Positions 3,680-16,404 of a DNA stretch of 64,000 nt are shown one piece after another; position 1 is the first letter of the stretch, and the number at the start of each line of letters is the position of its first letter. This DNA comes from Candidatus Poribacteria bacterium. GTDB lineage: Bacteria > Abyssobacteria > SURF-5. The position numbers and the translations under genes were made by a program. Below the pieces are notes generated by a model, which made no database searches, was not told where the DNA came from, and worked only from the letters and a program-made list of their open reading frames with translations. Location of the stretch: NCBI GenBank assembly GCA_016215705.1, contig JACRIR010000051.1, positions 7,771 through 71,770 on the forward strand, read 5' to 3'.

Positions 3680-5362
3680 ATGCGCACACTGTTCTACGGG
3701 TCTTGCCTGTCTCTCCTGCTGGTGCTTTTACCCTTACGCAATTCCACGGCGCAGGAATATCATATGCTCGACACCGAAGAAGCCTTCACGGTGGGCCAAG
3801 GGAATATTAGAACAGAAGTCGAGTTCGGTATCACCAAACAGCCCGATGCATCGGAATTATACAATATACCGCGTCTTCGGCTGACCTACGGATTGAGCGA
3901 GTGGGCCGACTTGGAATTGGAATATGAAGTTCTCGCCGTCAACGACACCGACTTCACTGAGTTTAGTGAAGGGACCACCAATGTGGACCATGACGACGCG
4001 GGTACAGGAGACCTGAGGATCAAACTCAAGGTCATTCCCTACGAATTTGGTCGGCATGACATGGGCTTTCAATTCATAACAAAACTTCCAAATGCTGATC
4101 AGCACGAAGGGCTTGGCACAAACGAGACCGATCTCACAGGGCAGGTTCTATTCTCCAGTGATTGGGGCCGACTCAAGACTCATGTTAACGCCGGCTTGGC
4201 TGTTCTCGGAGACCCGGCGAGGAATGGAAACCAAAACGACTTCTTGATATGGGGAGCGGGAGGGGAATACACTCTCACCGATTCTCTGACGCTGATGGGC
4301 GAAGTCGAAGGATCAACAGCGGCCGAACACGGCACGGAAGGCTTCACCGAGAATATCACCGAGGGCTCCGAAGGGAACGCGCGCGCAAGGGTGCGCTTTG
4401 CTCTCACCGGGCCGATTGGGCGATGGAGATGGGGAATCAGCGGATTCAAGGGCATCAATAGTCACACGGAAGACTGGGGAGCTCAGTTCGGCCTCAGCCG
4501 AACGTGGGGCATCGGCAGCTCAAGAGAGACCGCAAAGCCGCCGCTGGCGCGAGGAACCATCCCTGAATCCTACTTCAACCCTCTGAAGACAGAAGAAGCT
4601 TACACTATCGGCGAACATGACTTCCGCACTGAAATAGGCACCGCCTATGTCAGGCAACCAGACGAATCTGACCTCTATGTAATCCCGGATTTGACCGTGG
4701 GATGGGGGATTGGACCCTGGGCTGACCTGCAATTCGAGTTCCAGTATTTGAAAGTGAAAGATACCGTCCGGCTCGACGTGAACGAAGGTGTTCTCGAAGA
4801 TAACATCGATGCGAATGGGAGGGGCGACGTCAGAATGAAGTTCAAGGCGTCTCCTTTTGAATGTAAATACGGCAGACTGGGAATCCAATTCATCACGAAG
4901 GCGCCAAGCGCAAGTGACGACGACGCCCTCGGCACGGATGAAGTCGATTTTATAGCCAAGGGTCTTTTTTCTACCGATTGGTCGCAGTTCTTCGCAGACG
5001 GTCCATTCAGTCGTCTGAGAACACATCTCAATGCGGGTTTATCAGTACAGGGGGACCGAAACAGGTTGGGAATACAACGTGACTACCTGCTGTGGGGAGT
5101 CGCAGCCGATTACGACATCATGCCTTCGCTTACTCTCTGGGCGGAAGCAGAAGGTTCCGAATCCGGAAAAGACAGCGCCAACATATCCGAAGGTGACTTC
5201 GGTAAAGCATATGCGGAAGCGCGTGTCGGGCTCACAGGCCCTCTCCCCAAAATGGCTTTTCTCGAAGATTGGAAATGGGGCGTCACCGCTTCGGCAGGCC
5301 TCAGCAATCGCTCACGAGATTGGACTGCAAGCGTGGGTCTCAGCCACACGTGGGGATTATGA
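3680..5362 (+). CDS. hypothetical secreted or outer-membrane protein with internal tandem duplication of a ~270-aa module
   Basis: N-terminal signal peptide (MRTLFYGSCLSLLLVLLPLRNSTAQE). The two halves align, for example LDTEEAFTVGQGNIRTEVEFG against LKTEEAYTIGEHDFRTEIGTA. Both halves end with GLSRTWGI or GLSHTWGL. Alternating polar and aromatic stretches suggest beta strands. Confidence 0.6.
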   Translation: MRTLFYGSCLSLLLVLLPLRNSTAQEYHMLDTEEAFTVGQGNIRTEVEFGITKQPDASELYNIPRLRLTYGLSEWADLELEYEVLAVNDTDFTEFSEGTTNVDHDDAGTGDLRIKLKVIPYEFGRHDMGFQFITKLPNADQHEGLGTNETDLTGQVLFSSDWGRLKTHVNAGLAVLGDPARNGNQNDFLIWGAGGEYTLTDSLTLMGEVEGSTAAEHGTEGFTENITEGSEGNARARVRFALTGPIGRWRWGISGFKGINSHTEDWGAQFGLSRTWGIGSSRETAKPPLARGTIPESYFNPLKTEEAYTIGEHDFRTEIGTAYVRQPDESDLYVIPDLTVGWGIGPWADLQFEFQYLKVKDTVRLDVNEGVLEDNIDANGRGDVRMKFKASPFECKYGRLGIQFITKAPSASDDDALGTDEVDFIAKGLFSTDWSQFFADGPFSRLRTHLNAGLSVQGDRNRLGIQRDYLLWGVAADYDIMPSLTLWAEAEGSESGKDSANISEGDFGKAYAEARVGLTGPLPKMAFLEDWKWGVTASAGLSNRSRDWTASVGLSHTWGL

Positions 5363-5550: not shown

Positions 5551-5680
5551 ACTGCGCTTGCCGCGCGTCCAGTGGCTGTAACTCGCTTGAGTTTTAGACC
5601 TCATATCCCCTATAATAAAAGCCAAACTAGTAGTCCTTTACATACAACGAGTTATAACTGGGAGGTATTGCCGGCGAGAG

Positions 5681-6577
5681 ATGAAAGGGGTAGTTTTGAG
5701 GTGGGTTGCAGGCGTCCTGAGATGGATATTCGCCCGATTGTCACCCGAGGTTGCGGGTTCTGTCGGGATAATCCTCGGAGATGTCGTGCGTGTTCTTGAC
5801 GCCAGGCATCGGCGAATAGCGCGCTTCAACCTCCGAATGGCCTTCGGCGCCTCAAAGTCAGAAAAAGAAGTAAAACAAATAGTACGGGACGTTTTCCGCA
5901 ATATTGGGCAGACAGCCGTAGAATTCATGCAAATCCCGTCTCTCACCTATGAAAAAGCCCTCAGCATGATTACTCCGGAACACCGTGAGAGACTGGACGA
6001 ATGCTTGCGGGCGGGAAGAGGCGTCGTACTGCTTGGCTCGCATTTCGGCAACTGGGAGCTCATGGCTGCCGCAGGCGCTATTGCCGGATATAGACTGTCG
6101 GCTGTGGCCAGGCCGCTTGACGATCCGGACCTGGAGAGAATAGTCCGCGGAATCAGGGAATCGTCCGGACTTTGCATAATCCCGCGGCGCACGTCGGCGC
6201 TCGCAATAGTGAGGAAATTCAAGCGAAACGAGATCGTAGGCGTTCTCGCCGACCAGAATACAAGAAAACAGAACGTCTTTGTGGATTTCTTCGGGGTGAA
6301 GGCCGCAACGACACCCGGACCGGCGCTGCTCGCCATGAAAACCGGCGCCATTCTTGTGCCCGCATTCATGCTGCGTGAAGCGCGCGGCAAACACAAGCTC
6401 ATAATCGAGAAACCGATTGAAGTGATACGGACGGGTGATGAGGAGGCGGATGTGGTCGCCATGACTCAGAAATGCGCTGCCATTCTGGAAGAGTATGTCA
6501 GAAGATATCCGGAGCAATGGTTTTGGGTCCACAGGCGCTGGAGGACCCGGCCTCCCGGAGAACCGCCCCTTTATTAG
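5681..6577 (+). CDS. lipid A biosynthesis late acyltransferase (LpxL/HtrB family, lysophospholipid acyltransferase superfamily)
   Basis: 298 aa. Carries the GSHFGNWE motif characteristic of Kdo2-lipid IVA acyltransferases and sits adjacent to the heptose-pathway genes. Confidence 0.75.
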   Translation: MKGVVLRWVAGVLRWIFARLSPEVAGSVGIILGDVVRVLDARHRRIARFNLRMAFGASKSEKEVKQIVRDVFRNIGQTAVEFMQIPSLTYEKALSMITPEHRERLDECLRAGRGVVLLGSHFGNWELMAAAGAIAGYRLSAVARPLDDPDLERIVRGIRESSGLCIIPRRTSALAIVRKFKRNEIVGVLADQNTRKQNVFVDFFGVKAATTPGPALLAMKTGAILVPAFMLREARGKHKLIIEKPIEVIRTGDEEADVVAMTQKCAAILEEYVRRYPEQWFWVHRRWRTRPPGEPPLY

Positions 6578-6659: not shown

Positions 6660-7616
6660 ATGGCAAGAACAAGGCGATACAAACCCGCGAATCTCACGAA
6701 AGTGAGAACACATAGCATCAAGAGCCGGAAAACCAAAGTGTCGCTGCGGCAGTTTGCATCGCTGCCGGAGCCCGACGCAAGTTTCACCGAGTTTCTGGCT
6801 TCACTCCCGGATGTCCTCGCCGTCACTCGCCTCAGGAACTTAATCAACGATATTCTTTCCGCCCGAAAAGCCGACAGGCCCGTCGTGGCCGCGTTCGGTG
6901 GACATGTCGTAAAGTGCGGGCTTGGACCCATTATCATAGATTTGATGCGAAGAGGATTCATAACCGCCATCGCGATGCATGGGGCGACGGCTATTCATGA
7001 CTATGAGATCTCGCTCATAGGTCAGACCTCCGAGGACGTGGAGGCAGTCTTGAAGGATGGCTCGTTCGGCATGGCGCGTGAGACTCCTCATGCGTTCGGG
7101 CGCGCCGCGAAGCTGGCATCTAGAAAGCGAGTGGGCCTCGGGCGCGCACTCGGCGATCTGATATTATCGGAGAAGAATCCGTATTCGCCGTTCAGTATTC
7201 TCGGCGCTGCCGCTGATCTCGATACTCCCGCCGCCGTAATGCTTGCGCTTGGGACCGACACCGTTTGCATGCATCCGGACTTCAATGCTGAAAAGCTGGC
7301 TGCCGCCAGCTACGTTGATTTCCGCACTCTTGTGTCGATTGCCGCCGATCTCGAAGGGGGAGTCTGGATGAATATCGGTTCCGCTGTAATTCTGCCCGAA
7401 GTATTCCTGAAGGTATTGAGCGTTGCTCGAAACATGGGCAACCGGGTCGAAAAGTTCACCACCGCCAACCTCGACATGAATCAGCACTATCGTCCGAATA
7501 CCAATGTTGTGGGCAGGCCCACGAAGCGCGGGTATTCAATAACAGGCCACCACGAGATCATGACGCCGCTGCTGCGCATGGGAATTATTTCCGCGGCCAA
7601 AGGAAAGATTCTGTGA
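6660..7616 (+). CDS. deoxyhypusine synthase (DHS)-like family protein, function unknown
   Basis: 318 aa. VVAAFGGHVVKCGLGPIIIDLMRRGFITAIAMHGATAIHD resembles the DHS GG-x-TTGGG-EED NAD-binding segment. EKNPYSPFSILGAAADLDT resembles the DHS motif KN-x-x-x-FSPALTDGSLGD. The start is uncertain because the basic N-terminus may be an extension. There is a 4-bp overlap with hldE. Confidence 0.4.
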   Translation: MARTRRYKPANLTKVRTHSIKSRKTKVSLRQFASLPEPDASFTEFLASLPDVLAVTRLRNLINDILSARKADRPVVAAFGGHVVKCGLGPIIIDLMRRGFITAIAMHGATAIHDYEISLIGQTSEDVEAVLKDGSFGMARETPHAFGRAAKLASRKRVGLGRALGDLILSEKNPYSPFSILGAAADLDTPAAVMLALGTDTVCMHPDFNAEKLAAASYVDFRTLVSIAADLEGGVWMNIGSAVILPEVFLKVLSVARNMGNRVEKFTTANLDMNQHYRPNTNVVGRPTKRGYSITGHHEIMTPLLRMGIISAAKGKIL

Positions 7617-9094
7617 GGGAAGGGCTAATCTCTCGTCTGGAAACGACACAGAACCCGGCCATTCTTGTGACCGGCGACATCATGCTCGATATGTACGTGT
7701 GGGGGAACGTTGAACGGATTTCTCCGGAGGCGCCGGTCCAGGTGCTAAAGATAGAGTCCGAGGAGCCGCGTCCGGGCGGAGCCGGCAACGTGGCGGCGAA
7801 CCTCTCCGCACTCGGCGCAAGGGTCTCCTGCTGCGGCATTGTCGGTGACGATGCTAATGGCCGCCTGCTTTGCCGGCTGCTCGGAAAGCTCCGAGTCGAC
7901 ACATCCGGAATGCTGCGGGATAAGGAGCGCCCCACTACGGTAAAGACGCGAATGATCGCCCACGGTCAACAGTTGCTGCGGGTGGACAAAGAAGAGACAC
8001 GACCTCCCACGGAAACAATTGAGAAGAAGTTGCTTGAGCGCATAAACGCTTTGCTGCCCTCGTGCGACGCCGTGCTGCTATCAGACTATGGGAAGGGCAC
8101 TCTGTCTGACGACGCAATCAGGAAGATTGTGGCGGCCTCCAATAAGAACCATAAGCCTGTCCTTGTCGATCCCGCCAGGCATCGCTCTGTCGAGTCTTAC
8201 AGACAGTGCACCGTATTGAAACCGAATCGCACCGAAGCCGCTCTGGCCGCCGGCATGCAGATAACGGACGAGGTTTCGCTGGAAGCTGCGGCAACGAGAT
8301 TGCTCGACGTCTCCAAAGCCATGTGCGTTCTTGTAACCGAGGGAAGCAATGGGATGACGGTTTTCAGGAAGTCATCCGAACCGCTGCACGTCGGCGGTCT
8401 GAGTCGCCCCGTTTATGACATTACCGGCGCGGGTGACACCGTTCTGAGCCTCCTGGGATACGTTCTCGCCGGCGGGGGAACTATTGAGGAAGCCGCCGAG
8501 ATCGCAAATGTCGCGGGGAGCATCGTCGTAGGCAAGCTCGGCGCCGCGCCGGTCACGAAGCAGGAAATCATCCGAGAATTGATGAGTTTTCAGCACGTTG
8601 CGTCCCACAAAATCAAGACAAGCGACGAAATTGCGGCGGTCTGTAGGGAACACAGGCGGCGAAAAGAAAAAATCGTATTTACGAATGGCTGCTTTGACTT
8701 GCTCCACGTCGGCCACATAAAGCTTTTTCAGTTCGCCAAAAACAATGGGGAGGTTCTTGTCGTCGGACTGAACTCGGATGCCTCGGTGAGAAAGCTCAAG
8801 GGGCCCTCAAGGCCGCTGCTGAAACAGACCGAGCGGGCATACATCCTGTCGGCGCTCGAACAGATTGATTACATTGTCGTGTTCGAGGAGACTACTCCGC
8901 TGAAACTCATCAAGGTGGTCAAGCCCGATGTTCTTGTGAAAGGCGCTGATTATACCAGGGACACGGTCGTCGGCAGGGATTTTGTGGAGTCTTACGGCGG
9001 ACGTGTTGAACTTGCTCCACTCGTGGAAGGCGCATCTAGTTCCGGCATCATGTCGCGGATTGTCAATAACAAAAACATCCCTCAGAAATCGTGA
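7613..9094 (+). CDS. hldE: bifunctional D-glycero-beta-D-manno-heptose-7-phosphate kinase / heptose-1-phosphate adenylyltransferase
   Basis: 493 aa. N-terminal pfkB-type sugar kinase domain, and a C-terminal cytidylyltransferase domain with FTNGCFDLLHVGHIKLF. Uses a GTG start. Confidence 0.9.
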   Translation: MREGLISRLETTQNPAILVTGDIMLDMYVWGNVERISPEAPVQVLKIESEEPRPGGAGNVAANLSALGARVSCCGIVGDDANGRLLCRLLGKLRVDTSGMLRDKERPTTVKTRMIAHGQQLLRVDKEETRPPTETIEKKLLERINALLPSCDAVLLSDYGKGTLSDDAIRKIVAASNKNHKPVLVDPARHRSVESYRQCTVLKPNRTEAALAAGMQITDEVSLEAAATRLLDVSKAMCVLVTEGSNGMTVFRKSSEPLHVGGLSRPVYDITGAGDTVLSLLGYVLAGGGTIEEAAEIANVAGSIVVGKLGAAPVTKQEIIRELMSFQHVASHKIKTSDEIAAVCREHRRRKEKIVFTNGCFDLLHVGHIKLFQFAKNNGEVLVVGLNSDASVRKLKGPSRPLLKQTERAYILSALEQIDYIVVFEETTPLKLIKVVKPDVLVKGADYTRDTVVGRDFVESYGGRVELAPLVEGASSSGIMSRIVNNKNIPQKS

Positions 9095-9103
9095 AAGGTC
9101 TCC

Positions 9104-9706
9104 ATGACTTTGGCAAATCGAGCAGTGTTCCTCGACCGCGACGGAACCATCAACGAAGAATGCGGCTACCTGAACCATCCGGACCGGCTGAGGCTGATCG
9201 AAGGAGCCCCCGAGGCTGTCGCGCTGCTTAATCGTCACGGATTCAAGACGATCGTGGTGTCGAATCAGTCCGGGGTCGCCCGGGGGTATTTCCCCGAAAA
9301 ACTCCTGGGAGCCCTTCACGACAAGATTCAGGCCCTTCTCAAGGCGCATGGCGCAGCCCTGGACGCGATATATTACTGCCCTCATCACTCCAGCGTCGGC
9401 GAGCCGCCTTACAGGCAGGATTGCGAATGCCGGAAACCGAAACTCGGAATGATTCACAGGGCTGAAATAGAATTTGCGGTCGATGCGCGACGCTCCTATA
9501 TGGTCGGCGATAAACTGAGCGACGTCGAGTTCGGAAAGCGCGCGGGCTGCAAGACTATTCTGGTTCTGACGGGCTATGGCAAGGGCGAATGGGAATACAA
9601 TCGGGAGAAATGCCCCGTGAAACCGGACTACGTTGCGGCGGATGTCCTCGGCGCCGCAAGGTGGATTGTCAATGACCTGAAAAACCGGGAACAGAGTCCA
9701 CGATGA
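9104..9706 (+). CDS. gmhB: D,D-heptose 1,7-bisphosphate phosphatase (HAD family)
   Basis: 200 aa with the HAD motif FLDRDGTIN and a Cys-rich zinc site (CPHH...CECRKP), typical of GmhB. Confidence 0.85.
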   Translation: MTLANRAVFLDRDGTINEECGYLNHPDRLRLIEGAPEAVALLNRHGFKTIVVSNQSGVARGYFPEKLLGALHDKIQALLKAHGAALDAIYYCPHHSSVGEPPYRQDCECRKPKLGMIHRAEIEFAVDARRSYMVGDKLSDVEFGKRAGCKTILVLTGYGKGEWEYNREKCPVKPDYVAADVLGAARWIVNDLKNREQSPR

Positions 9707-11202
9707 AGGTTCTTTTTATATACCCGAACTTGAATGCTCAGGTTGGCTTCAATTACGGAGTCGCCTTCCTGTCTGCTTGCCTGAAGGAAAGCGGCCATTC
9801 TACGGCCCTCCTTAACATCAACGAACAACTCGGATTCGATTTTGACGTTGCAAGGATCAGACGCGAGGTAACCGCGTTCGCGCCGGACCTGATCGGTTTC
9901 TCGGTCGTGAGCAATCAATATCGCTTCGCCCGCGAGATCGCGCGCGACATAAAAACGTATTGCAAAGCGCCCATTGTCTGCGGCGGCATTCATCCGACAA
10001 TGGACCCCGAAAGCGTGCTGCGGGATGGATGCTTCGATTACGTGTGTGTTGGAGAAGGCGAGCGCGCAATAGTCGAGCTTGCGGACGCATTGGAAAACGG
10101 TAGCCCCACAACCGGTATCGAGAATATTTGGCTCAAAGTTGAGGGGGATATTATCCGGAACCACGTGCGGCCGTTTGTGCCACTCGAATCTCTCCCCCGA
10201 AAGGACTACGAGATTTTCGAGTTTCAGAAGATGATCGACGCGAAGGACGGCTGGGTCGGAATCATGAGTTCGAGGGGTTGCCCTTTCAGTTGCTCATATT
10301 GCTTCAATCATCGTTTGCGCGAGCTCTATGAGCGTGACCTTGGCTGCTCCGCAGCCGCGCTGCGCTACATCAGGTATCATCCCGTGACCGCCGTGATTGA
10401 CGAAATAGAGACGCTGCTGTCATCGTACAAGAATATAAAAACCATCATCTTCGACGATGATCTGTTCACACTGAACAAGAACTACTTGAGAGAGTTTTGC
10501 AGGGAATACGGCCGGCGCGTCGGCCTGCCTTTTGTGTGCAATGCGCATGTGAAAGTGTTTGACGAGGAGGCGGCAGGATGTCTGAAGGAAGCAGGCTGCC
10601 GGATTGTGAAATTCGGGCTCGAAAGCGGGAGCGACCGGGTCAGGCGCGAAATACTGAACCGGCGTATGTCCAATGACGACATCATTCGCGCGTTTGCGAC
10701 CGCCGAACGCTTCGGATTCCACACGTCTGCATTTGTGATTATCGGCTTCCCTCGCGAAACCATAGCCGAAATCCACGAAACAATAGAACTGCTCGCGCGC
10801 ATAAGGCCCGGCCGATTTCGCTGGTCGGTCTTTTTCCCGTTCGTTAACACGCGCGCATATGACATTGCGCGCGAAGGGGGGTTCATCGACTTCGAGAAGC
10901 TCGAGAGCCTTACCAATTTCACGGATGAATCCGCTCTCGACTTCGGGCCCACGCACAACCTGCTCCTCCGAAAACTGAGGACAACGTTTCCCTGGTACGT
11001 CAATGCCCGCGCAAATTTCAAGTGCTCCCCCCTCTATTCCGAACTCATCGAGCGCGTCGAGAAGATCACGCCGGAGGAATGGCCCAAAGTGGAGGAGTCC
11101 GTCACCCGGATTGATACCGACATCTCGCGAATGCTGGACCTCTCGGAAGAGCCGCATTACGGCTATAAGTACAATATGTTCACGGCGGTGAGAAGCTATT
11201 AA
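9703..11202 (+). CDS. B12-binding domain radical SAM protein
   Basis: 499 aa. N-terminal Rossmann-like B12-binding region and the radical SAM cluster motif GCPFSCSYC. Overlaps gmhB by 4 bp, so it is in the same operon. Confidence 0.85.
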   Translation: MKVLFIYPNLNAQVGFNYGVAFLSACLKESGHSTALLNINEQLGFDFDVARIRREVTAFAPDLIGFSVVSNQYRFAREIARDIKTYCKAPIVCGGIHPTMDPESVLRDGCFDYVCVGEGERAIVELADALENGSPTTGIENIWLKVEGDIIRNHVRPFVPLESLPRKDYEIFEFQKMIDAKDGWVGIMSSRGCPFSCSYCFNHRLRELYERDLGCSAAALRYIRYHPVTAVIDEIETLLSSYKNIKTIIFDDDLFTLNKNYLREFCREYGRRVGLPFVCNAHVKVFDEEAAGCLKEAGCRIVKFGLESGSDRVRREILNRRMSNDDIIRAFATAERFGFHTSAFVIIGFPRETIAEIHETIELLARIRPGRFRWSVFFPFVNTRAYDIAREGGFIDFEKLESLTNFTDESALDFGPTHNLLLRKLRTTFPWYVNARANFKCSPLYSELIERVEKITPEEWPKVEESVTRIDTDISRMLDLSEEPHYGYKYNMFTAVRSY

Positions 11203-11248
11203 GACCTCCACTGATTACAATCGAATCCTTGTTCGCCTGCCCAATTGG

Positions 11249-12271
11249 GTGGGAGACGTGGTCATGGCTACGCCGGCGCTGAGATGTCTCCGCCTCAATT
11301 TCCCCAAAGCTCAGATTGATCTGACGTTGATTCCATACGTGCGCAAAATTCTCGAAGGCGCGCCGTGGTTCGACGCAATCATCGAATACTCGCCCAAAGG
11401 CGAACACAAAGGGATCGTGGGCCACCGGCGATATCTTCGCGGCCTGCGGAAGAACGAGTACGACCTGATTCTCGTTTTTCCGAACTCCTTCATTTCGGCG
11501 CTCCTCGCATATCTTTCCGGCGCGAAACTGCGTGTCGGGTACAATCGCGAAGGTCGCAGGATTCTGTTGACCAATGCCCTCCCGCGTCCGGCTGAAAGCG
11601 GCAGGTTTGCGCCACAGCCAATGGTGGATTATTACCTGAAGCTTTGCGAAGAGGTCGGAGCGACGGCGGGCTCAAAGAAAACCGAACTCTTTGTGGACCA
11701 TGCCTCCGAGAAACGGGCGGAAGAGTTGTTCGCGAAATACGAGATAGGGCGGAGGAGGCCCGTCATCGCCATCAATCCGGGCGCTGCCTATGGCTCTTCC
11801 AAGCTGTGGGCTCCCGAGAATTTCTCCGAAGTCTGCGACACTCTTCTCGAACACGCAGATTGCGACGTGGTGCTCCTGGGTGGACCAAATGAGCAGAATA
11901 CCGTGTGTGAAATAGTGCACGCCGCGCGTGTGAAACCAACGAATCTTGCAGAAGAGAATGTGCCTCTTGATCTGCTTAAATCGGTCATCAAACGGTGCGA
12001 CCTGCTTATTACAGTCGATTCCGGTCCTCGACACATTGCGGTCGCGTTCGATAAGCCGGTGGTCGTGCTGATGGGTCCAACCGATCCTCGCTATACGAAC
12101 TGCAATCTCGAAAAGTCGGCGATCCTGAGAGTCAGCGACCTCGACTGCGCTCCGTGTCACATCAAGAAATGTCCGACCGACCACGAATGCATGACAAGGA
12201 TTACGCCCGATATGGTCATCCGGGCTGCCTCCGAGCTTCTCAGGAAATACGTGCGGGCGAGTCAGCTTTGA
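11249..12271 (+). CDS. ADP-heptose:LPS heptosyltransferase (glycosyltransferase family 9)
   Basis: 340 aa with GT9 hallmarks (VGDVVMATPALRCL, GPTDPRYT, CAPCHIKKC). The ORF starts at GTG 11249, but the upstream in-frame peptide NRILVRLPNWVGD suggests the true start lies a few codons upstream (about 11198). Confidence 0.8.
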   Translation: MGDVVMATPALRCLRLNFPKAQIDLTLIPYVRKILEGAPWFDAIIEYSPKGEHKGIVGHRRYLRGLRKNEYDLILVFPNSFISALLAYLSGAKLRVGYNREGRRILLTNALPRPAESGRFAPQPMVDYYLKLCEEVGATAGSKKTELFVDHASEKRAEELFAKYEIGRRRPVIAINPGAAYGSSKLWAPENFSEVCDTLLEHADCDVVLLGGPNEQNTVCEIVHAARVKPTNLAEENVPLDLLKSVIKRCDLLITVDSGPRHIAVAFDKPVVVLMGPTDPRYTNCNLEKSAILRVSDLDCAPCHIKKCPTDHECMTRITPDMVIRAASELLRKYVRASQL

Positions 12272-12388: not shown

Positions 12389-14110
12389 ATGGAATCTCCT
12401 TTGAATAGGTCCGCAGATTCATCACGTGTGACGGCCCTGGATGTGACCTTCATATTCTGCTTGTGTCTGATTGTATATGCGAACTCATTCGGTGTTGGTT
12501 GGATTTCGGATGATGTTCGCTTTATCAAATCCAATCCGGGCATAAGGAGTCTATCAAATACGGGCGAATTCTTTACAAACCCTGCCGATACAGCGGCGTC
12601 AACCGGCCGCGAAGGGATTTATCGGCCCTTGCGAACATTGTCATTCGCGATTGACTATGCCATTTGGGGAGCCAACCCCTTCGGCTTCCATGTCACCAGC
12701 TTTGTCTTGCATTTTGTATCCTCGGTGCTTGTGTTTCTCTTGTGCATGTCCCTGGATGCGGGAAGGCGGTCAGCGCTTGTTGCGTCGGCGTTGTTTGCAG
12801 CGCATCCGGCGCAAGTGGAGGCCATTACCTGGATTTCCAGCCGTGCAGATTGTATGGCGACAGTCTTTCTGCTCATCTCATTCTTGCTTTTTGTCAGGGC
12901 GAGGAAGGAGAAAGGATCTGTTCCTGTCTTGCTTGGCGGTTCATGGCTTTGTTTTCTGCTCGCTCTTTTGAGCAAGGAGACGGCCATTGTTCTTCCTGCC
13001 CTTCTCATAACATACGATATTTTTGCCGGTAAGATGCGCGTAAAGGCTCTCCGCTCGCGGCTCGTTGAGTATTGCCTGTTCATTGGACTCGCAGTAACCT
13101 ATTTCGCCGCGCGCGCCCGCCTCCTTCAAATGGTATCGCAAGGCGGGTATTGGGGTGGAAGCCTGGTGGCCACAATGCTGACTATGGCGAAATGCTTCCT
13201 CATTTATCTGCGGATCGTTTTTCTTCCGCGCGCAAGCAGTTGCCTCGAATACATGGTTCCGCTTGCAGGATTTCCGCTGACCTTTGCGATTGTGTGGCCT
13301 TTGATACTCGTCGCGATTTTTGTGACGGCGACGATCGCCGTGTGGCGGCTTTCACCGCGCGCCGGATTCGGCCTGTCATGGTATCTCATAGCGCTGGCGC
13401 CGGTTTCGAATGTCCTGCCGATGTCAATGCTGATGGCGGAACGCTTCTTGTACTTTCCTATGGTCGGCATATGTATTGCCGCGCTTCCTATCATGGAAAC
13501 CGCCACGCGCAAGAGGAGTCGGCGGGTCCATCTCATGGCAAACGCATCCTTTTGCGCGCTCTTGTTCCTGCTCGGAGTTACCAGCGTTGTGAAAAACTCG
13601 GCATGGCGAGACCCTGTCGTTCTCTGGAATCAGTCGCTGCACGATTATCCCGATAGCTACCGGGCCCGAATGGGTCTGGCCGGCGAGTACTACGACCGCG
13701 GCGAAAACCTCGAAGCAATCAAGCAGTACGGTATTGCGCTCCGACTTTTCCCGAATGTGCAGGTAATGCATGACATCGGGAATGCTTATCGGCAGGTGGG
13801 CGATATCGCTTCAGCAATCGCGGCATACAGGGCTGCGCTCGCAATGGACCCCAATTCGTCTTGGACACTGACGAGTCTGGGAATCGCTTACATGAAGCAG
13901 GGCAAGATGGATCAGGCAATCGAGGTTTTACAGCGCGCGACAGAAATCGACAAGAGCTATGCCGCAGCTCATTTCTTTCTTGGGAATGCCCTGGCGGAAG
14001 AAGGCGACCTTGAAACGGCGCTGAAGGAATACAGAACCGCCCTCGTCTATGCTCCGGACGCCGAAGAGGTGCGCCGCCGGATTGCTGATATCGAACGCAG
14101 ACAGAAGTGA
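12389..14110 (+). CDS. polytopic membrane glycosyltransferase-like protein (PMT/ArnT-like fold) with C-terminal TPR repeats
   Basis: 573 aa with about 11 predicted TM helices and an SDDVRF acidic loop motif. C-terminal TPR repeats include YDRGENLEAIKQYGIALRL and AIAAYRAALAMDP. Confidence 0.6.
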   Translation: MESPLNRSADSSRVTALDVTFIFCLCLIVYANSFGVGWISDDVRFIKSNPGIRSLSNTGEFFTNPADTAASTGREGIYRPLRTLSFAIDYAIWGANPFGFHVTSFVLHFVSSVLVFLLCMSLDAGRRSALVASALFAAHPAQVEAITWISSRADCMATVFLLISFLLFVRARKEKGSVPVLLGGSWLCFLLALLSKETAIVLPALLITYDIFAGKMRVKALRSRLVEYCLFIGLAVTYFAARARLLQMVSQGGYWGGSLVATMLTMAKCFLIYLRIVFLPRASSCLEYMVPLAGFPLTFAIVWPLILVAIFVTATIAVWRLSPRAGFGLSWYLIALAPVSNVLPMSMLMAERFLYFPMVGICIAALPIMETATRKRSRRVHLMANASFCALLFLLGVTSVVKNSAWRDPVVLWNQSLHDYPDSYRARMGLAGEYYDRGENLEAIKQYGIALRLFPNVQVMHDIGNAYRQVGDIASAIAAYRAALAMDPNSSWTLTSLGIAYMKQGKMDQAIEVLQRATEIDKSYAAAHFFLGNALAEEGDLETALKEYRTALVYAPDAEEVRRRIADIERRQK

Positions 14111-14144: not shown

Positions 14145-14828
14145 TCAGCCGCCGTCTTCCCTCTTGCTCGGCGCGCCACGAGATGATTTACCAATCAATA
14201 TCCACGAGATATGATGATGGGTTTCTCCTGTCGCGCGCGGCTCATCATACTCACGCTCGCGAAGCTCTTCGATATCAAGAAATGCAAAATCCTCCGCTAA
14301 TTCTTCTTTCGTGCATAAATGCAAGTAGACCCTGTCTTGGAACGAATTGGGTTCTCCGGGAATTGCGACCCCCTTGCCGCGATGTTCCGGATCGCTCACG
14401 GAGAGAGTACTGAGGAAAAACAGCCCGCCCGGTTTCAGGGCTTCGCGCGCCGCCTGGCGCAAATCGTTTCGCCCTTCCTTGTTGAGCAACTGGTAAAGGT
14501 TTGAGACGAAGACGATATCATAGACGTTTTGAGTCAGCTCCCTGAAATCACGAAGCTCGAATTCAACGCCTTGCTTACGGTTATCCACGACGGTTTTCGA
14601 GGCTATTTCTATTGCCTTCTTGGAGATGTCTATGCCGCGGACTGAGCATTTACAGTTGTCGAGGAGGTAGAACGCATCCCGGCCATAACCACAGCCTATG
14701 TCCAATATGCTAAACGACTCGCCTGGCGGCCGATGTGACCGTAAATACTCAAGCGCGGCGACTGCCAGGATGCTCGGTCCCTCGCCCCAGATACGCTCCT
14801 GGCTCTTATATTGGTCATCCCAAAACAT
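14145..14828 (-). CDS. class I SAM-dependent methyltransferase
   Basis: 227 aa with SAM-binding motif I, ILDIGCGYGRDAFYL. Confidence 0.8.
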   Translation of the reverse strand: MFWDDQYKSQERIWGEGPSILAVAALEYLRSHRPPGESFSILDIGCGYGRDAFYLLDNCKCSVRGIDISKKAIEIASKTVVDNRKQGVEFELRDFRELTQNVYDIVFVSNLYQLLNKEGRNDLRQAAREALKPGGLFFLSTLSVSDPEHRGKGVAIPGEPNSFQDRVYLHLCTKEELAEDFAFLDIEELREREYDEPRATGETHHHISWILIGKSSRGAPSKREDGG

Positions 14829-15273: not shown

Positions 15274-16404
15274 CTATCGCGATCTCAACGGCCTTTCCTG
15301 TTTGAATAGTTCACTTGCAGCTTCGAGAACATCCTCCGGTTTGACCGCTTCCATGCACTTCGCGTAGACGCAATCCTCATCGCATGGGTGGCACGGGACT
15401 TCGCTCCTTACGATTCTGTTCGGCTTCCAGTAGGGCGCGTTTATTCGCTCATCCGTCGGCCCGAAAATCGCCACCACCGGCGTTCCCATCGCGGAGCCTA
15501 TGTGCATGGGGCCCGAGTCCACAGTGACCATCATCTCGCACAATTCCAACAAAGCGGCCAGCTCGAGCAGACTATCGGTCTGCATTCCGATCAGAGGGCG
15601 TGTTCTTGTCAAGGAGCGTATTTGCTCGACCTCTTCACGCTCACCCGGTCCCCACGTGAGAATTACCCTTGCCCCGAGCTTCTGTGTCAAGAGATCGCAG
15701 AGAGCGGCAAACGACTGCAAAGGCCACTTTTTCAGGGGGCGGCTGGTCCCCGGATGAACGGCTACCAGTGGATGGCAATCTCCAAGCTTGTCATGGATGA
15801 ATTTGTGTGCTTTCGCGCGATGTTTATCCGTCACACCCAACGCCGGCCTTTGCGTCAGATTTCCAGGCAGTACGAACTGTTTTATCAATTCGAGATTCCT
15901 GACTACACGGGGCAAGCCTGCGTCAGAAGGCCTTATTCGGAGATTCGTGAAGAAATAGCTGAATTCCTTGACATAGCCTTCCTTGAAGCCGATCCTCTTC
16001 GGAGAATGGGACAAGTATGCGATGAGGCCGCTCTTGAGTATTCCGTGGAAGTCGAACGCAAGGTCATATTTGACACTTCGCAAGCGGGATAAGAATCGAA
16101 TGAGCAACGCAACGGCTTCGGGAAAACGCAAAGGGTTCTTCAATGACCGCACAATTCTTTTTCTCTCAAACACCAATACCTCATCGAGATACGGATGCCC
16201 CTCTAATATGCCGCTCGATTTGTCTTCGACGACCCAAGTGATGTGAGCTTTGGGATAGTTCTGCCTGAGAGAAGTGAGCGCCGGCAGCGTTCGGACCACG
16301 TCGCCGATTGAGCTGAGCCTTATGATCAGGATACTACTGGGCGTGACAGTGCCAACCATGCGTGGATTATAACTTAGCCGGTCTGCTGTGTCAAAAGTAG
16401 ACAC
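15274..16404 (-). CDS. ADP-heptose:LPS heptosyltransferase (GT9; WaaF/WaaC-like)
   Basis: 376 aa with ILIIRLSSIGDVV, GPTDERINAPY and CHPCDEDC motifs. The true start is possibly the internal Met (MVGTVTPSS) near 16359. Confidence 0.85.
   Translation of the reverse strand: MSTFDTADRLSYNPRMVGTVTPSSILIIRLSSIGDVVRTLPALTSLRQNYPKAHITWVVEDKSSGILEGHPYLDEVLVFERKRIVRSLKNPLRFPEAVALLIRFLSRLRSVKYDLAFDFHGILKSGLIAYLSHSPKRIGFKEGYVKEFSYFFTNLRIRPSDAGLPRVVRNLELIKQFVLPGNLTQRPALGVTDKHRAKAHKFIHDKLGDCHPLVAVHPGTSRPLKKWPLQSFAALCDLLTQKLGARVILTWGPGEREEVEQIRSLTRTRPLIGMQTDSLLELAALLELCEMMVTVDSGPMHIGSAMGTPVVAIFGPTDERINAPYWKPNRIVRSEVPCHPCDEDCVYAKCMEAVKPEDVLEAASELFKQERPLRSR

What the first reader, a model, noticed from the sequence alone, without database searches (positions are those of the whole stretch)
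9703..11202. B12-binding radical SAM enzyme translationally coupled to gmhB inside the heptose cluster
Class-B (cobalamin-dependent) radical SAM enzymes typically catalyse methylation or other rearrangements at unactivated carbons. This one overlaps gmhB by 4 bp and precedes a GT9 heptosyltransferase. A SAM methyltransferase and a second heptosyltransferase lie just downstream on the other strand. This suggests a modified (C-methylated or epimerised) heptose, or another unusual core sugar.
Basis: partly seen in the sequence, partly recalled or inferred. Interest (0 to 1): 0.55.

Follow-up and report, generated by a model that had tools for sequence, protein, structure and literature searches.

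The report
Radical SAM enzyme in LPS heptose operon
A vitamin-B12-type radical enzyme of unknown reaction is encoded inside the genes that build the heptose part of the bacterial outer-membrane lipopolysaccharide, and the same pairing recurs in several phyla of uncultured, probably anaerobic bacteria, which points to an undescribed step in making the lipopolysaccharide core.

Summary
ORF 9703-11202 (+) encodes a 499-aa soluble protein with a B12-binding domain, a radical SAM core with CxxxCxxC, and a family-specific C-terminal domain. It overlaps gmhB by 4 bp and is followed by a WaaF-type GT9 gene.

The protein reaches no curated family cut-off. Its nearest solved relatives are TsrM, AprD4, QCMT, OxsB, CysS and TokK at about 14-21% identity.

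It defines a tight orthologous family: 47-89% identity in MAGs labelled Abyssobacteria, Thermodesulfobacteriota, Syntrophorhabdaceae, Auribacterota and Planctomycetota. In 50 of 54 dereplicated loci a GT9 gene lies directly downstream. ADP-heptose genes (hldE or split hldA/hldC) are usually adjacent. In one sub-lineage the order is GT9-I, rSAM, GT9-II, hldA, hldC. The gmhB coupling and the nearby SAM methyltransferase are lineage-specific.

Most likely this is a dedicated radical modifier of the inner-core heptose, acting on ADP-heptose or on Hep-Kdo2-lipid A. The chemistry is unresolved: C-methylation is favoured by the record of characterised B12-domain enzymes, and epimerisation or dehydration is not excluded.

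I found no paper linking a radical SAM enzyme to the LPS core. Verdict: a real gene and a new variant of a known enzyme kind in an unreported pathway context; interest is moderately high.

The parts
5587..5616 (+). Sigma-70-like promoter match (TTGAGT-18-TATAAT) upstream of lpxL; a possible start of the operon
   Evidence: Consensus scan, 10 of 12 positions matched. This is a consensus match only, not evidence of function.
5681..6577 (+). LpxL-like lipid A late acyltransferase; the first gene of the co-directional cluster
   Evidence: PF03279, 189 bits. NCBIfam lauroyl acyltransferase models all score below their cut-offs. Linked to the rSAM only in the window's lineage, L003 and a few other loci.
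6660..7616 (+). GSU2086-family protein with a deoxyhypusine-synthase/LOR-SDH-like fold and unknown function; overlaps the hldE start by 4 bp
   Evidence: NF052581, 353 bits against a cut-off of 250. AF2 model pLDDT 75; Foldseek hits to DHS, ArgZ C-terminal domain and LOR/SDH proteins, E about 1e-6, TM about 0.5. In G. sulfurreducens it sits between gmhA and hldE and has the same Tn-seq phenotype as both (PMC5585712).
7613..9094 (+). hldE: bifunctional heptose-7-phosphate kinase / heptose-1-phosphate adenylyltransferase
   Evidence: TIGR02198, 359 bits (cut-off 345) and TIGR02199, 193 bits (cut-off 181.5).
9104..9706 (+). gmhB-like heptose 1,7-bisphosphate phosphatase (HAD-IIIA); its stop codon overlaps the rSAM start as ATGA
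   Evidence: NF006506, 174.8 bits against a cut-off of 178; TIGR01662, 124.6 bits against 44.6. Overlap read directly from the sequence.
9703..11202 (+). B12-binding-domain radical SAM enzyme, 499 aa, soluble: the finding itself
   Evidence: No hydrophobic segment above the transmembrane threshold.
9745..10080 (+). Cobalamin-binding-type Rossmann domain (aa 15-126), containing the invariant G94-G95-x-H97-x-T99
   Evidence: PF02310, 81 bits. The family profile aligns this region to the cobalamin-binding enzymes OxsB, TokK, CysS and TsrM, but not to AprD4. Invariant residues listed.
10279..10311 (+). Radical SAM cluster motif C193-x3-C197-x2-C200, followed by the invariant F-N202-H203
   Evidence: Translation. 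Invariant across 29 orthologues. N202 aligns with TokK W215 and TsrM E236.
10900..11199 (+). Family-specific C-terminal domain (aa about 400-499: helical bundle plus beta-hairpin), with no Pfam match
   Evidence: AF2 secondary structure. Orthologues at 42% identity and above align across the full length, whereas paralogues at 36-40% align only to about aa 1-413.
11198..12271 (+). WaaF-type GT9 heptosyltransferase. The conserved N-terminus lies upstream of the first canonical start (GTG 11249). The likely start is near-cognate ATT 11198, which overlaps the rSAM stop, or ATC 11225.
   Evidence: TIGR02195, 174 bits against a cut-off of 134.6. E. coli WaaF aligns from 11222. Reading-frame analysis. 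A GT9 gene lies directly downstream of the rSAM in 69 of 73 loci.
12389..14110 (+). Polytopic membrane protein (about 8 TM segments) with C-terminal TPR repeats; context only, not conserved next to the rSAM
   Evidence: Pfam TPR hits at aa 414-572; hydropathy profile; no tblastn hit in related loci.
14145..14828 (-). Class I SAM methyltransferase; context only, not conserved next to the rSAM
   Evidence: Pfam Methyltransf_25/11/31; no tblastn hit in any related locus.
15274..16404 (-). Second GT9, WaaC-like (heptosyltransferase I type)
   Evidence: PF01075, 146 bits. TIGR02193, 166.6 bits against a cut-off of 185.3. A 62%-identical counterpart sits at a similar distance in L010.

Best explanation
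The ORF encodes an intact, cytoplasmic radical SAM enzyme with an N-terminal cobalamin-binding-type domain. It belongs to an unnamed, tightly conserved orthologous family whose gene is a fixed part of the LPS inner-core heptose operon in several lineages known only from metagenomes (MAGs labelled Abyssobacteria, Thermodesulfobacteriota including Syntrophorhabdaceae, Auribacterota and Planctomycetota).

Shown: the domain architecture, the cluster motif, a class-B fold, absence from every curated family, and conserved same-strand adjacency to a WaaF-type GT9 and to ADP-heptose synthesis genes.

Inferred mechanism: the [4Fe-4S] cluster reductively cleaves SAM. The 5'-deoxyadenosyl radical abstracts a hydrogen from an unactivated carbon of the heptose. 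The substrate is either the donor ADP-glycero-manno-heptose or the first heptose already on Kdo2-lipid A. The substrate radical is then resolved with the help of cobalamin. The modified heptose is what the co-translated WaaF-type transferase uses.

My estimates are as follows. The function is tied to inner-core heptose: about 0.75-0.8. Given that, the chemistry is methyl transfer from methylcobalamin giving a C-methyl-heptose: about 0.35. It is a non-methylating reaction (dehydration, deoxygenation, rearrangement or oxidation): about 0.3. It is C6'' epimerisation standing in for HldD: about 0.2.
For: Architecture and fold. PF02310 plus PF04055 with CxxxCxxC. AF2 model pLDDT 90. The 17 best Foldseek PDB matches are all enzymes with a cobalamin-binding-type N-terminal domain: TsrM 4e-22, AprD4 3e-20, QCMT 9e-20, then OxsB, CysS and TokK. 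The N-terminal domain aligns by profile to enzymes that truly bind cobalamin (OxsB aa 22-208, TokK 59-231, CysS, TsrM), while AprD4, which lacks cobalamin, aligns only over aa 221-409. The N-terminal domain is as invariant as the radical SAM core.

Operon linkage. There is a 4-bp overlap with gmhB. The GT9 reading frame opens before the rSAM stop codon and has no canonical start ahead of its conserved N-terminus. No intergenic terminator-like site lies between lpxL and the GT9 gene.

Conservation of context. A GT9 gene lies directly downstream in 69 of 73 loci, in 50 of 54 clusters dereplicated at 90% identity, and in 19 of 23 at 70%. hldE-type genes lie within 4 kb in 52 of 61 loci. GT9 and hldE are the only neighbour families conserved across lineages. 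The Syntrophorhabdaceae-type operon reads GT9-I, rSAM, GT9-II, hldA, hldC. The same linkage appears in loci labelled Thermodesulfobacteriota, Auribacterota and Planctomycetota.

Other points. The rSAM is better conserved (55-57% identity to the window protein) than its partners GT9 (36-42%) and HldE (34-46%) in the same loci. The organism uses B12, since a methylmalonyl-CoA mutase gene is in the window. Most characterised B12-domain radical SAM enzymes are methyltransferases, and some act on sugar carbons, for example GenK (own knowledge).
Against: No biochemical or genetic data exist for any member. No cultured carrier was identified, so no LPS structure can be matched to the gene. Gene adjacency does not identify the substrate. 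Cobalamin binding is inferred from homology only, and AprD4 shows that such a domain can be cobalamin-free.

The residue two positions after the third cluster cysteine is an invariant Asn (N202), followed by an invariant His. The radical methylase TokK has Trp at the aligned position, and the review reports a hydrophobic residue at this site in Mmp10 and the DUF512 proteins as well. This argues mildly against a canonical radical methylase.

The best PDB sequence match is a dehydratase, AprD4. Four loci lack an adjacent GT9, and one of them is a solitary gene among housekeeping genes. I know of no LPS core reported to contain a C-methyl-heptose.
Confidence: 0.6

Rival explanations
1. Non-orthologous replacement of HldD. 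The enzyme would be a radical C6'' epimerase that converts ADP-D-glycero-D-manno-heptose into the L-glycero form used by WaaC and WaaF. It would abstract H6'' and return a hydrogen atom from the opposite face.
For: In E. coli the epimerase gene rfaD/hldD sits directly upstream of waaF-waaC, which is the position the rSAM holds here. No HldD homologue was found in the 64-kb window. None was convincing in about 95 related loci that carry nearly every other inner-core gene. The SDR genes present in some of these operons score as 4,6-dehydratase/GalE-like: 106 and 136 bits against the heptose_epim cut-off of 274.6. Radical SAM sugar epimerases exist, including AbmJ, which acts on a heptofuranose (PMC9978623).
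Against: A strictly conserved cobalamin-type domain has no obvious role in epimerisation. As far as I know, the known radical SAM epimerases are not of the B12-domain class. HldD does not need oxygen, so anaerobes have no evident reason to replace it. hldD is often unlinked to other core genes, so its absence from flanks of about 8 kb is weak evidence. In this window the operon also holds a GSU2086-family protein with a deoxyhypusine-synthase-like fold; the solved proteins of that fold are NAD-dependent, which makes it another candidate for a transient-oxidation epimerase. The only extra invariant cysteines are C115 and C299. C299 lies in an 'AGC' motif shared with AprD4 and TsrM, so it is not a specific H-atom donor signature.
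Confidence: 0.15
2. A non-methylating radical enzyme acting on a core sugar. One version is an AprD4-like 1,2-diol dehydratase working on the C6-C7 diol of heptose or on Kdo, giving a keto- or deoxy-sugar. Another is an OxsB/HpnJ/BchE-like rearrangement or oxidation in which cobalamin acts as an electron sink rather than a methyl carrier.
For: The best PDB sequence match is AprD4, a radical SAM diol dehydratase acting on an aminoglycoside sugar (1e-19 by single sequence, 5e-23 by profile). One of the two best NCBIfam hits is HpnJ, at 112 bits. At the position between cobalamin and the cluster, this family has the polar invariant pair N202/H203, where the radical methylase TokK has Trp; non-radical-methylating TsrM has Glu there. 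TokK's lower-axial Trp76 aligns with the invariant N71. Related paralogues are fused to class I SAM methyltransferase and APH-type kinase domains, as if the radical step creates a group that is then methylated or phosphorylated. One orthologue (L091) is followed by a Zn-dependent alcohol dehydrogenase and a DeoC-type aldolase.
Against: Similarity to AprD4 is confined to the radical SAM core, and all family scores are far below their cut-offs (72 against 500 for AprD4; 112 against 577.6 for HpnJ). No reductase or other partner is conserved next to the gene. The mapping of the lower-axial residue is ambiguous, because OxsB N186 aligns with V69 instead. At the Cys3+2 position the radical methylase QCMT has Val, so the residue rule is loose.
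Confidence: 0.2
3. The enzyme does not act on a sugar. It would modify lipid A acyl chains or another envelope lipid, or serve an unrelated pathway, and merely share a transcription unit with core genes.
For: lpxL heads the cluster in the window and in some other loci. Many B12-domain radical SAM enzymes modify lipids; the ladderane-associated family TIGR04072 scores 101 bits and HpnJ 112 bits. A small second radical SAM gene and a thioesterase precede the operon in Syntrophorhabdaceae-type loci. One orthologue is solitary among housekeeping genes, and a 38%-identical full-length relative sits on a phage- or plasmid-like contig.
Against: lpxL adjacency is sporadic, while GT9 and hldE adjacency is near-universal. 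The gene is wedged between the two heptosyltransferases or overlaps them. The protein has no membrane segment.
Confidence: 0.08

Closest known systems
AprD4 (radical SAM 1,2-diol dehydratase of apramycin biosynthesis, PDB 6FD2)
   Same: It is the best PDB sequence match (1e-19 by single sequence, 5e-23 by profile) and a top structural match (Foldseek 3e-20, TM about 0.63). It is a radical SAM enzyme with an N-terminal Rossmann domain, and it acts on a sugar.
   Different: Only aa 221-409 align by profile. The NF033070 score is 72 against a cut-off of 500. AprD4 does not use cobalamin (own knowledge), whereas this family's N-terminal domain aligns to true cobalamin binders. AprD4 works in an aminoglycoside pathway and partners with the reductase AprD3; no such partner is conserved here.
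Class B (cobalamin-dependent) radical SAM C-methyltransferases: TokK, CysS, QCMT/MgmA, and GenK and Fom3 (the last two from own knowledge)
   Same: Same domain order (B12-type domain, radical SAM core, C-terminal domain) and same fold (Foldseek 1e-14 to 9e-20). GenK methylates an unactivated sugar carbon (C6'), which is the closest chemical precedent for a C-methyl-heptose (own knowledge).
   Different: Sequence identity is 14-18%. No curated methylase family is reached. An invariant Asn-His follows the cluster motif where TokK has Trp and QCMT has Val. The C-terminal domain is unrelated. The context is primary envelope biosynthesis rather than secondary metabolism or MCR modification.
OxsB and HpnJ (B12-domain radical SAM enzymes proposed or shown to contract sugar or nucleoside rings)
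   Same: The B12 domain and the linker up to the cluster motif align to OxsB (profile E 1.4e-12, aa 22-208). HpnJ is one of the two best NCBIfam hits, at 112 bits. Both act on carbohydrate-type substrates.
   Different: HpnJ's cut-off is 577.6, so this protein is not a member. OxsB has extra N- and C-terminal domains (744 aa). No hopanoid or oxetanocin genes lie nearby.
HldD/RfaD (ADP-L-glycero-D-manno-heptose 6-epimerase)
   Same: It occupies the same operon position, directly upstream of waaF, as in E. coli rfaD-waaF-waaC. It is the one canonical ADP-heptose step for which no gene was found in the window or in the related loci.
   Different: HldD is an NADP-dependent SDR with no sequence or fold relationship to radical SAM enzymes. 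Any equivalence would be functional analogy only, and it is untested.
AbmJ (radical SAM heptofuranose C3 epimerase of albomycin biosynthesis)
   Same: It is a radical SAM enzyme acting on a seven-carbon sugar (PMC9978623).
   Different: It belongs to a natural-product pathway. It is not a B12-domain enzyme (own knowledge).

Membership tests
Radical SAM superfamily | CxxxCxxC cluster motif within a partial TIM-barrel radical SAM core | tested here: met
   C193/C197/C200, invariant in 29 orthologues. PF04055, 73 bits against a cut-off of 29.5. Fold matches to radical SAM structures.
Class B (cobalamin-binding-domain) radical SAM enzymes | N-terminal Rossmann-type B12-binding domain preceding the radical SAM core | tested here: met
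   PF02310, 81 bits against a cut-off of 32.1. Profile alignment to the B12 domains of OxsB, TokK, CysS and TsrM. The 17 best Foldseek PDB matches are all enzymes with this type of N-terminal domain.
Class B (cobalamin-binding-domain) radical SAM enzymes | Cobalamin actually bound and required for turnover | not testable with these tools
   AprD4 carries a similar domain without cobalamin (own knowledge). UV-visible or EPR spectroscopy of purified protein is needed.
B12-dependent radical SAM methyltransferases | Membership of a curated methylase family (PhpK, HpnR, KedN5, Trp 2-C-methyltransferase, QCMT, RiPP C-methyltransferases) | tested here: not met
   Best scores are 101.7 against 600 (PhpK), 67.5 against 360 (QCMT family) and 33 against 650 (HpnR).
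B12-dependent radical SAM methyltransferases | Hydrophobic residue between cobalamin and the cluster, and a hydrophobic lower-axial residue (review PMC12931638) | tested here: inconclusive
   The Cys3+2 position is an invariant Asn202, against TokK W215, TsrM E236 and QCMT Val. TokK W76 aligns to invariant N71, but OxsB N186 aligns to V69. These are sequence alignments only, with no cofactor-bound model.
AprD4-family radical SAM diol dehydratases (NF033070) | Score above the family cut-off over the full length | tested here: not met
   72 bits against a cut-off of 500, covering aa 180-399 only.
HpnJ (TIGR03471) / BchE (TIGR02026) / ladderane-associated B12 rSAM (TIGR04072) / ApyD (NF050148) | Score above the family cut-off | tested here: not met
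   112 against 577.6; 97.7 against 481; 101 against 360; 115 against 750.
LPS inner-core heptose gene module (functional association, not homology) | Same-strand adjacency to GT9 heptosyltransferase and ADP-heptose synthesis genes, conserved across divergent lineages | tested here: met
   69 of 73 loci and 50 of 54 dereplicated clusters have a GT9 gene directly downstream. 52 of 61 loci have hldE-type genes within 4 kb. MAG labels span several phyla.
LPS inner-core heptose gene module (functional association, not homology) | Loss or gain of the gene changes LPS core structure | not testable with these tools
   Genetics and MS/NMR of LPS are required. No cultured carrier was identified.
HldD (TIGR02197) functional analogue | Genomes carrying the rSAM lack a true HldD | tested here: inconclusive
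   No HldD in the window or in flanks of about 8 kb. The SDRs found score 106-136 bits against a cut-off of 274.6. Whole genomes could not be searched.

The most novel reading that the evidence does not exclude
This would be the first radical SAM enzyme of LPS core biosynthesis. In this reading, a cobalamin-dependent enzyme builds a previously unknown heptose derivative (C-alkylated, deoxygenated or rearranged), and that derivative is a constitutive inner-core building block in several phyla of uncultured, probably anaerobic diderm bacteria. The conserved inner-core chemistry of these lineages would then differ from the Proteobacterial Kdo-Hep-Hep paradigm. A related copy on a phage- or plasmid-like contig hints that mobile elements may also use the reaction.
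Probability: 0.35. Interest if true: 0.8.

Novelty: new variant of a known kind. Interest (0 to 1): 0.62.

Why it matters
LPS inner-core assembly (Kdo, heptoses, phosphates) is regarded as well understood. It is a target for antibiotic adjuvants and, through ADP-heptose, a trigger of innate immunity. That model rests almost entirely on aerobic or facultative Proteobacteria.

A highly conserved radical enzyme wedged between the two heptosyltransferases in several phyla implies a missing step or a missing sugar derivative in the envelopes of many environmental bacteria. If ADP-heptose itself is the substrate, the product would be a new nucleotide-heptose, which could be tested for recognition by the ADP-heptose sensor ALPK1.

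For radical SAM enzymology, this would give the B12-domain class a member in primary envelope metabolism with a cheap, defined candidate substrate. The hypothesis is directly testable in vitro and in E. coli heptose mutants.

Tried and rejected
An alignment query would have reached further. The metagenome scan made up for this.

2. Membership of a characterised B12-rSAM clade is rejected. Every NCBIfam score is far below its cut-off, and PDB sequence identity is at most about 21%.

3. I looked for HldD and GmhA in the window and in all loci using the E. coli proteins. GmhA appeared only in L003. The SDR hits proved to be 4,6-dehydratase/GalE-like. The HldD-replacement idea could therefore be neither confirmed nor excluded.

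4. The SAM methyltransferase at 14145-14828 is rejected as a partner. It has no counterpart in any related locus.

5. I tried to infer methylase versus non-methylase from the residues around cobalamin. The alignments are ambiguous: TokK W76 maps to N71, and OxsB N186 maps to V69. This is treated as a weak hint only.

6. Literature searches combined radical SAM with heptosyltransferase, ADP-heptose, waaF, waaC, hldE and LPS core. I also checked two 2026 reviews. Nothing links a radical SAM enzyme to the LPS core.

7. I looked for a cultured carrier with a known LPS structure. All named relatives are MAGs.

8. A PHROGs scan of the protein, its phage-contig relative and that relative's neighbour gave no hits.

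9. The afdb50 fold library was unavailable.

10. Two frames guessed for the L003 gmhA-like regions gave no NCBIfam hits, probably because the frame was wrong. The tblastn result stands.


Full report
OBSERVATION

The ORF at 9703-11202 (+) is present exactly as described: ATG start, 499 codons. Pfam finds a B12-binding domain (PF02310, aa 15-126, 81 bits, E 8e-23) and a Radical_SAM domain (PF04055, aa 189-364, 73 bits, E 4e-20), both well above gathering scores. The cluster motif is C193-x3-C197-x2-C200.

The upstream ORF 9104-9706 is a HAD-IIIA phosphatase of the GmhB type (NF006506, 174.8 bits against a cut-off of 178). Its TGA stop overlaps the rSAM ATG as ATGA.

Upstream of that lie hldE (7613-9094; both equivalog domains above cut-off), a GSU2086-family protein gene (6660-7616, overlapping the hldE start by 4 bp) and an LpxL-like acyltransferase gene (5681-6577).

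Downstream lies a GT9 gene that passes the heptosyltransferase II model (TIGR02195, 174 bits against 134.6). Next comes a membrane/TPR protein gene (12389-14110). On the other strand are a class I SAM methyltransferase (14145-14828) and a WaaC-like GT9 (15274-16404).

A sigma-70-like site lies upstream of lpxL, and no intergenic terminator-like site occurs between lpxL and the GT9 gene. The exact protein is NCBI MBI5115569.1, annotated only as 'B12-binding domain-containing radical SAM protein [Candidatus Poribacteria bacterium]'.

WHAT THE PROTEIN IS

No NCBIfam model comes near its cut-off. The best scores are ApyD 115 against 750, HpnJ 112 against 577.6, PhpK 102 against 600, the ladderane-associated family 101 against 360, BchE 98 against 481 and AprD4 72 against 500.

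Against PDB sequences the best matches are AprD4 (1e-19, radical SAM core only), QCMT/MgmA (1e-11; identified through the review PMC12931638), TsrM and OxsB.

An AlphaFold2 model built on 29 orthologues is confident (pLDDT 90, pTM 0.87). Its 17 best Foldseek matches in the PDB are all enzymes with a cobalamin-binding-type N-terminal domain: TsrM 4e-22, AprD4 3e-20, QCMT 9e-20, then OxsB, CysS and TokK, with TM about 0.6 and 14-21% identity.

A profile of the family aligns its N-terminal domain to the B12 domains of enzymes that truly bind cobalamin: OxsB (aa 22-208), TokK (59-231), CysS and TsrM. AprD4, which does not use cobalamin, aligns only over aa 221-409. The N-terminal domain is as invariant as the core, including G94-G95-x-H97-x-T99. 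The protein has no hydrophobic segment above the transmembrane threshold.

It is therefore a soluble class-B-type radical SAM enzyme of an uncharacterised family. Cobalamin use is inferred, not shown.

THE FAMILY AND ITS CONTEXT

Homologues fall into two bands. One band has 89-71% identity (relatives labelled Abyssobacteria). The other is a broad plateau at 54-60% (labels include Thermodesulfobacteriota, 'Deltaproteobacteria' and Auribacterota). A sub-lineage at 49-53% identity carries the labels Syntrophorhabdaceae, Syntrophus and Syntrophobacterales.

In a library clustered at 50% identity, the whole group collapses to one representative scoring 691 bits. Scores then drop to 456 bits (42% identity). 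Below about 40% identity, relatives align only to aa 1-413 and lack the C-terminal domain.

Gene neighbourhoods from long contigs show rSAM, GT9, heptose kinase and adenylyltransferase in that order in Thermodesulfobacteriota, Auribacterota and other loci. The SURF_17 Abyssobacteria relative has lpxL, GSU2086, hldE, rSAM and GT9, without gmhB.

I ran tblastn with the window's proteins against all fetched loci (4 genomic, 80 metagenomic and those from contig look-ups). Among the 73 loci with at least 45% identity and at least 1.2 kb of downstream sequence, 69 have a GT9 gene directly downstream on the same strand. Of 61 loci with enough flank, 52 have hldE-type genes within 4 kb. Of 65 loci, 28 also have a WaaC-like GT9 directly upstream.

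After dereplication, the downstream GT9 is present in 50 of 54 clusters at 90% identity and in 19 of 23 at 70%.

An all-against-all clustering of neighbouring ORFs shows that GT9 and hldE are the only families conserved across lineages.

In the Syntrophorhabdaceae-type operon the order is GT9-I, rSAM, GT9-II, hldA, hldC. A Planctomycetota locus at 47% identity has lpxL, GSU2086, two gmhA-like genes, then further on gmhB, rSAM and GT9.

There are exceptions. One copy is solitary among housekeeping genes (L096). One is followed by a Zn-dependent alcohol dehydrogenase and a DeoC-type aldolase, with a GT9 gene 4 kb away (L091). Two short loci (L052, L065) had no GT9 hit within about 1.3 kb of downstream sequence.

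The SAM methyltransferase has no counterpart in any related locus.

In the window and its relative L002, the conserved N-terminus of the GT9 protein (RILVRLPNWVGD) precedes any canonical start codon. The reading frame opens just before the rSAM stop, so a near-cognate ATT overlapping that stop, or ATC 11225, probably initiates translation.

HOW IT MOST LIKELY WORKS

The following are shown:
- An intact radical SAM core and cobalamin-type domain.
- High conservation. The rSAM is 55-57% identical to the window protein in loci where GT9 is 36-42% and HldE 34-46% identical.
- A near-fixed position next to the WaaF-type transferase and the ADP-heptose activation genes.

The following are inferred. 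The enzyme abstracts a hydrogen from an unactivated carbon of the inner-core heptose. The substrate is either ADP-heptose or HepI on Kdo2-lipid A. Cobalamin helps resolve the radical, and the product is used by the adjacent transferase.

Two weak hints bear on the substrate level, and they point in different directions:
- The GT9-I, rSAM, GT9-II gene order mirrors the assembly order, which favours a lipid-linked intermediate.
- The protein is soluble, and the 42%-identical relative P0121 sits between a nucleotidyltransferase-like gene and a BadF/BcrA-type ATPase gene, a family that includes sugar kinases. This favours a sugar-phosphate or nucleotide-sugar substrate.

Chemistry: most characterised B12-domain radical SAM enzymes are methyltransferases (own knowledge; review PMC12931638). 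GenK methylates a sugar carbon (own knowledge). C-methylation is therefore my single most likely guess, at about 0.35 given a heptose role.

Some evidence points away from a canonical radical methylase. The residue two positions after the third cluster cysteine is an invariant Asn followed by an invariant His; TokK has Trp at the aligned position, TsrM has Glu and QCMT has Val. TokK's lower-axial Trp76 aligns with invariant N71, although OxsB's N186 aligns with V69. The best sequence match is also a sugar diol dehydratase. I therefore give non-methylating chemistry about 0.3 and HldD-like epimerisation about 0.2.

RIVAL EXPLANATIONS

(a) HldD replacement. In E. coli, rfaD sits directly upstream of waaF-waaC. 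No convincing HldD was found in the window or in any locus. Against this, a conserved B12 domain has no role in epimerisation, HldD does not need oxygen, and absence from 8-kb flanks is weak evidence. The operon here also carries a GSU2086-family protein whose model has a deoxyhypusine-synthase/LOR-SDH-like fold. The solved members of that fold are NAD-dependent, which makes it another candidate for a transient-oxidation epimerase. In Geobacter that gene lies between gmhA and hldE, with gmhB next, and shares their Tn-seq phenotype (PMC5585712; PMC3495685).

(b) AprD4-, OxsB- or HpnJ-like non-methylating chemistry, as discussed above.

(c) A lipid A or unrelated role. This is disfavoured because lpxL linkage is sporadic while GT9 and hldE linkage is near-universal.

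COMPARISON WITH WHAT IS KNOWN, AND NOVELTY

The protein is a member of the radical SAM superfamily and of its B12-domain class by architecture and fold. It is not a member of any curated functional family. I found no publication connecting a radical SAM enzyme with heptosyltransferases, ADP-heptose or the LPS core. Seven papers mention both 'radical SAM' and 'heptosyltransferase'; I read two, and the titles of the other five are unrelated to LPS-core enzymology. Two 2026 reviews, one on B12-dependent radical SAM enzymes and one on radical SAM lipid enzymes, do not mention LPS or heptose. The library is limited to open-access papers and preprints.

I rate it a new variant of a known kind: a familiar enzyme class in an unreported, conserved role in primary envelope biosynthesis. 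Interest is 0.62. The genomic association is strong, broad and directly testable, but the reaction is unknown and every carrier identified is uncultured.

LIMITS

- Whole genomes could not be searched, so the presence of HldD elsewhere is unknown.
- Taxon labels come from MAG records.
The family's full range of contexts is therefore undersampled.
- The residue-level arguments rest on sequence alignments without a cofactor-bound structure.

Noticed in passing
window 6660-7616 (+): A GSU2086-family protein (NF052581, 353 bits) overlaps the hldE start by 4 bp. Its AF2 model (pLDDT 75) matches deoxyhypusine synthase, LOR/SDH proteins and the ArgZ C-terminal domain (Foldseek E about 1e-6). In Geobacter sulfurreducens the order is gmhA, GSU2086, hldE, gmhB, and the gene shares the Tn-seq phenotype of gmhA and hldE. 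Homologues occur in anammox Planctomycetes, Abyssobacteria and relatives. It looks like a second unassigned component of ADP-heptose synthesis, possibly an HldD-like epimerase analogue.
   Followed up: partly
window 11192-11260 (+); L002 9490-9560: The conserved N-terminus of the WaaF-type GT9 protein (RILVRLPNWVGD) lies upstream of the first canonical start codon (GTG 11249). The frame opens at 11192. Only the near-cognate codons ATT 11198 (overlapping the rSAM TAA stop as ATTAA) and ATC 11225 are available. The same holds in relative L002. This suggests a non-AUG start or termination-reinitiation coupling.
   Followed up: partly
L016 8001-9533 (protein P0130): A full-length relative (38% identity, only 2 gaps, including the C-terminal domain and the CSYCFN motif) lies on a 90-kb phage- or plasmid-like contig. 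That contig carries DnaB, primase-like, RNase HII and dCMP deaminase genes and many small same-strand ORFs. It has no GT9 or hldE genes nearby and no PHROG match.
   Followed up: partly
proteins P0224, P0188, P0269 (36-40% identity over aa 1-413): Paralogues that lack this family's C-terminal domain are fused instead to class I SAM methyltransferase domains. One of them (P0224, 1043 aa) also carries an APH-type kinase domain.
   Followed up: no
L064 5635-8000; L100 7633-10001: In Syntrophorhabdaceae-type loci the operon begins with a small radical SAM protein (291 aa, no B12 domain, HpnJ/BchE-like core) and a YbgC/4HBT thioesterase, ahead of GT9-I, B12-rSAM, GT9-II, hldA and hldC. These two families appear in about 18-21 loci.
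   Followed up: no
window 3680-5362 (+): A 560-aa protein has a signal-peptide-like N-terminus and an internal duplication (the two halves are about 41% identical). It has no Pfam, NCBIfam or PDB match. It is conserved between dnaE and lpxL in relatives L002 and L010, and may be an outer-membrane protein.
   Followed up: no
window 12389-14110 (+): The TPR protein has an N-terminal domain of about 400 aa with about 8 hydrophobic segments, like a GT-C-type membrane glycosyltransferase, and no Pfam match. It is not found next to the rSAM in any relative.
   Followed up: no
L091 9593-11428: One orthologue (49% identity) is followed by a Zn-dependent alcohol dehydrogenase and a DeoC/LacD-type aldolase rather than a GT9 gene; a GT9 gene lies 4 kb further on. 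This could hint at a keto- or aldehyde-sugar product.
   Followed up: no
whole window: The window matches a 72.85-kb contig of an NCBI MAG labelled 'Candidatus Poribacteria bacterium' (proteins MBI5115567-69). Its closest relatives, however, are labelled Abyssobacteria/Abyssubacteria, Lindowbacteria and Hydrogenedentota, so the taxon label may be unreliable.
   Followed up: no
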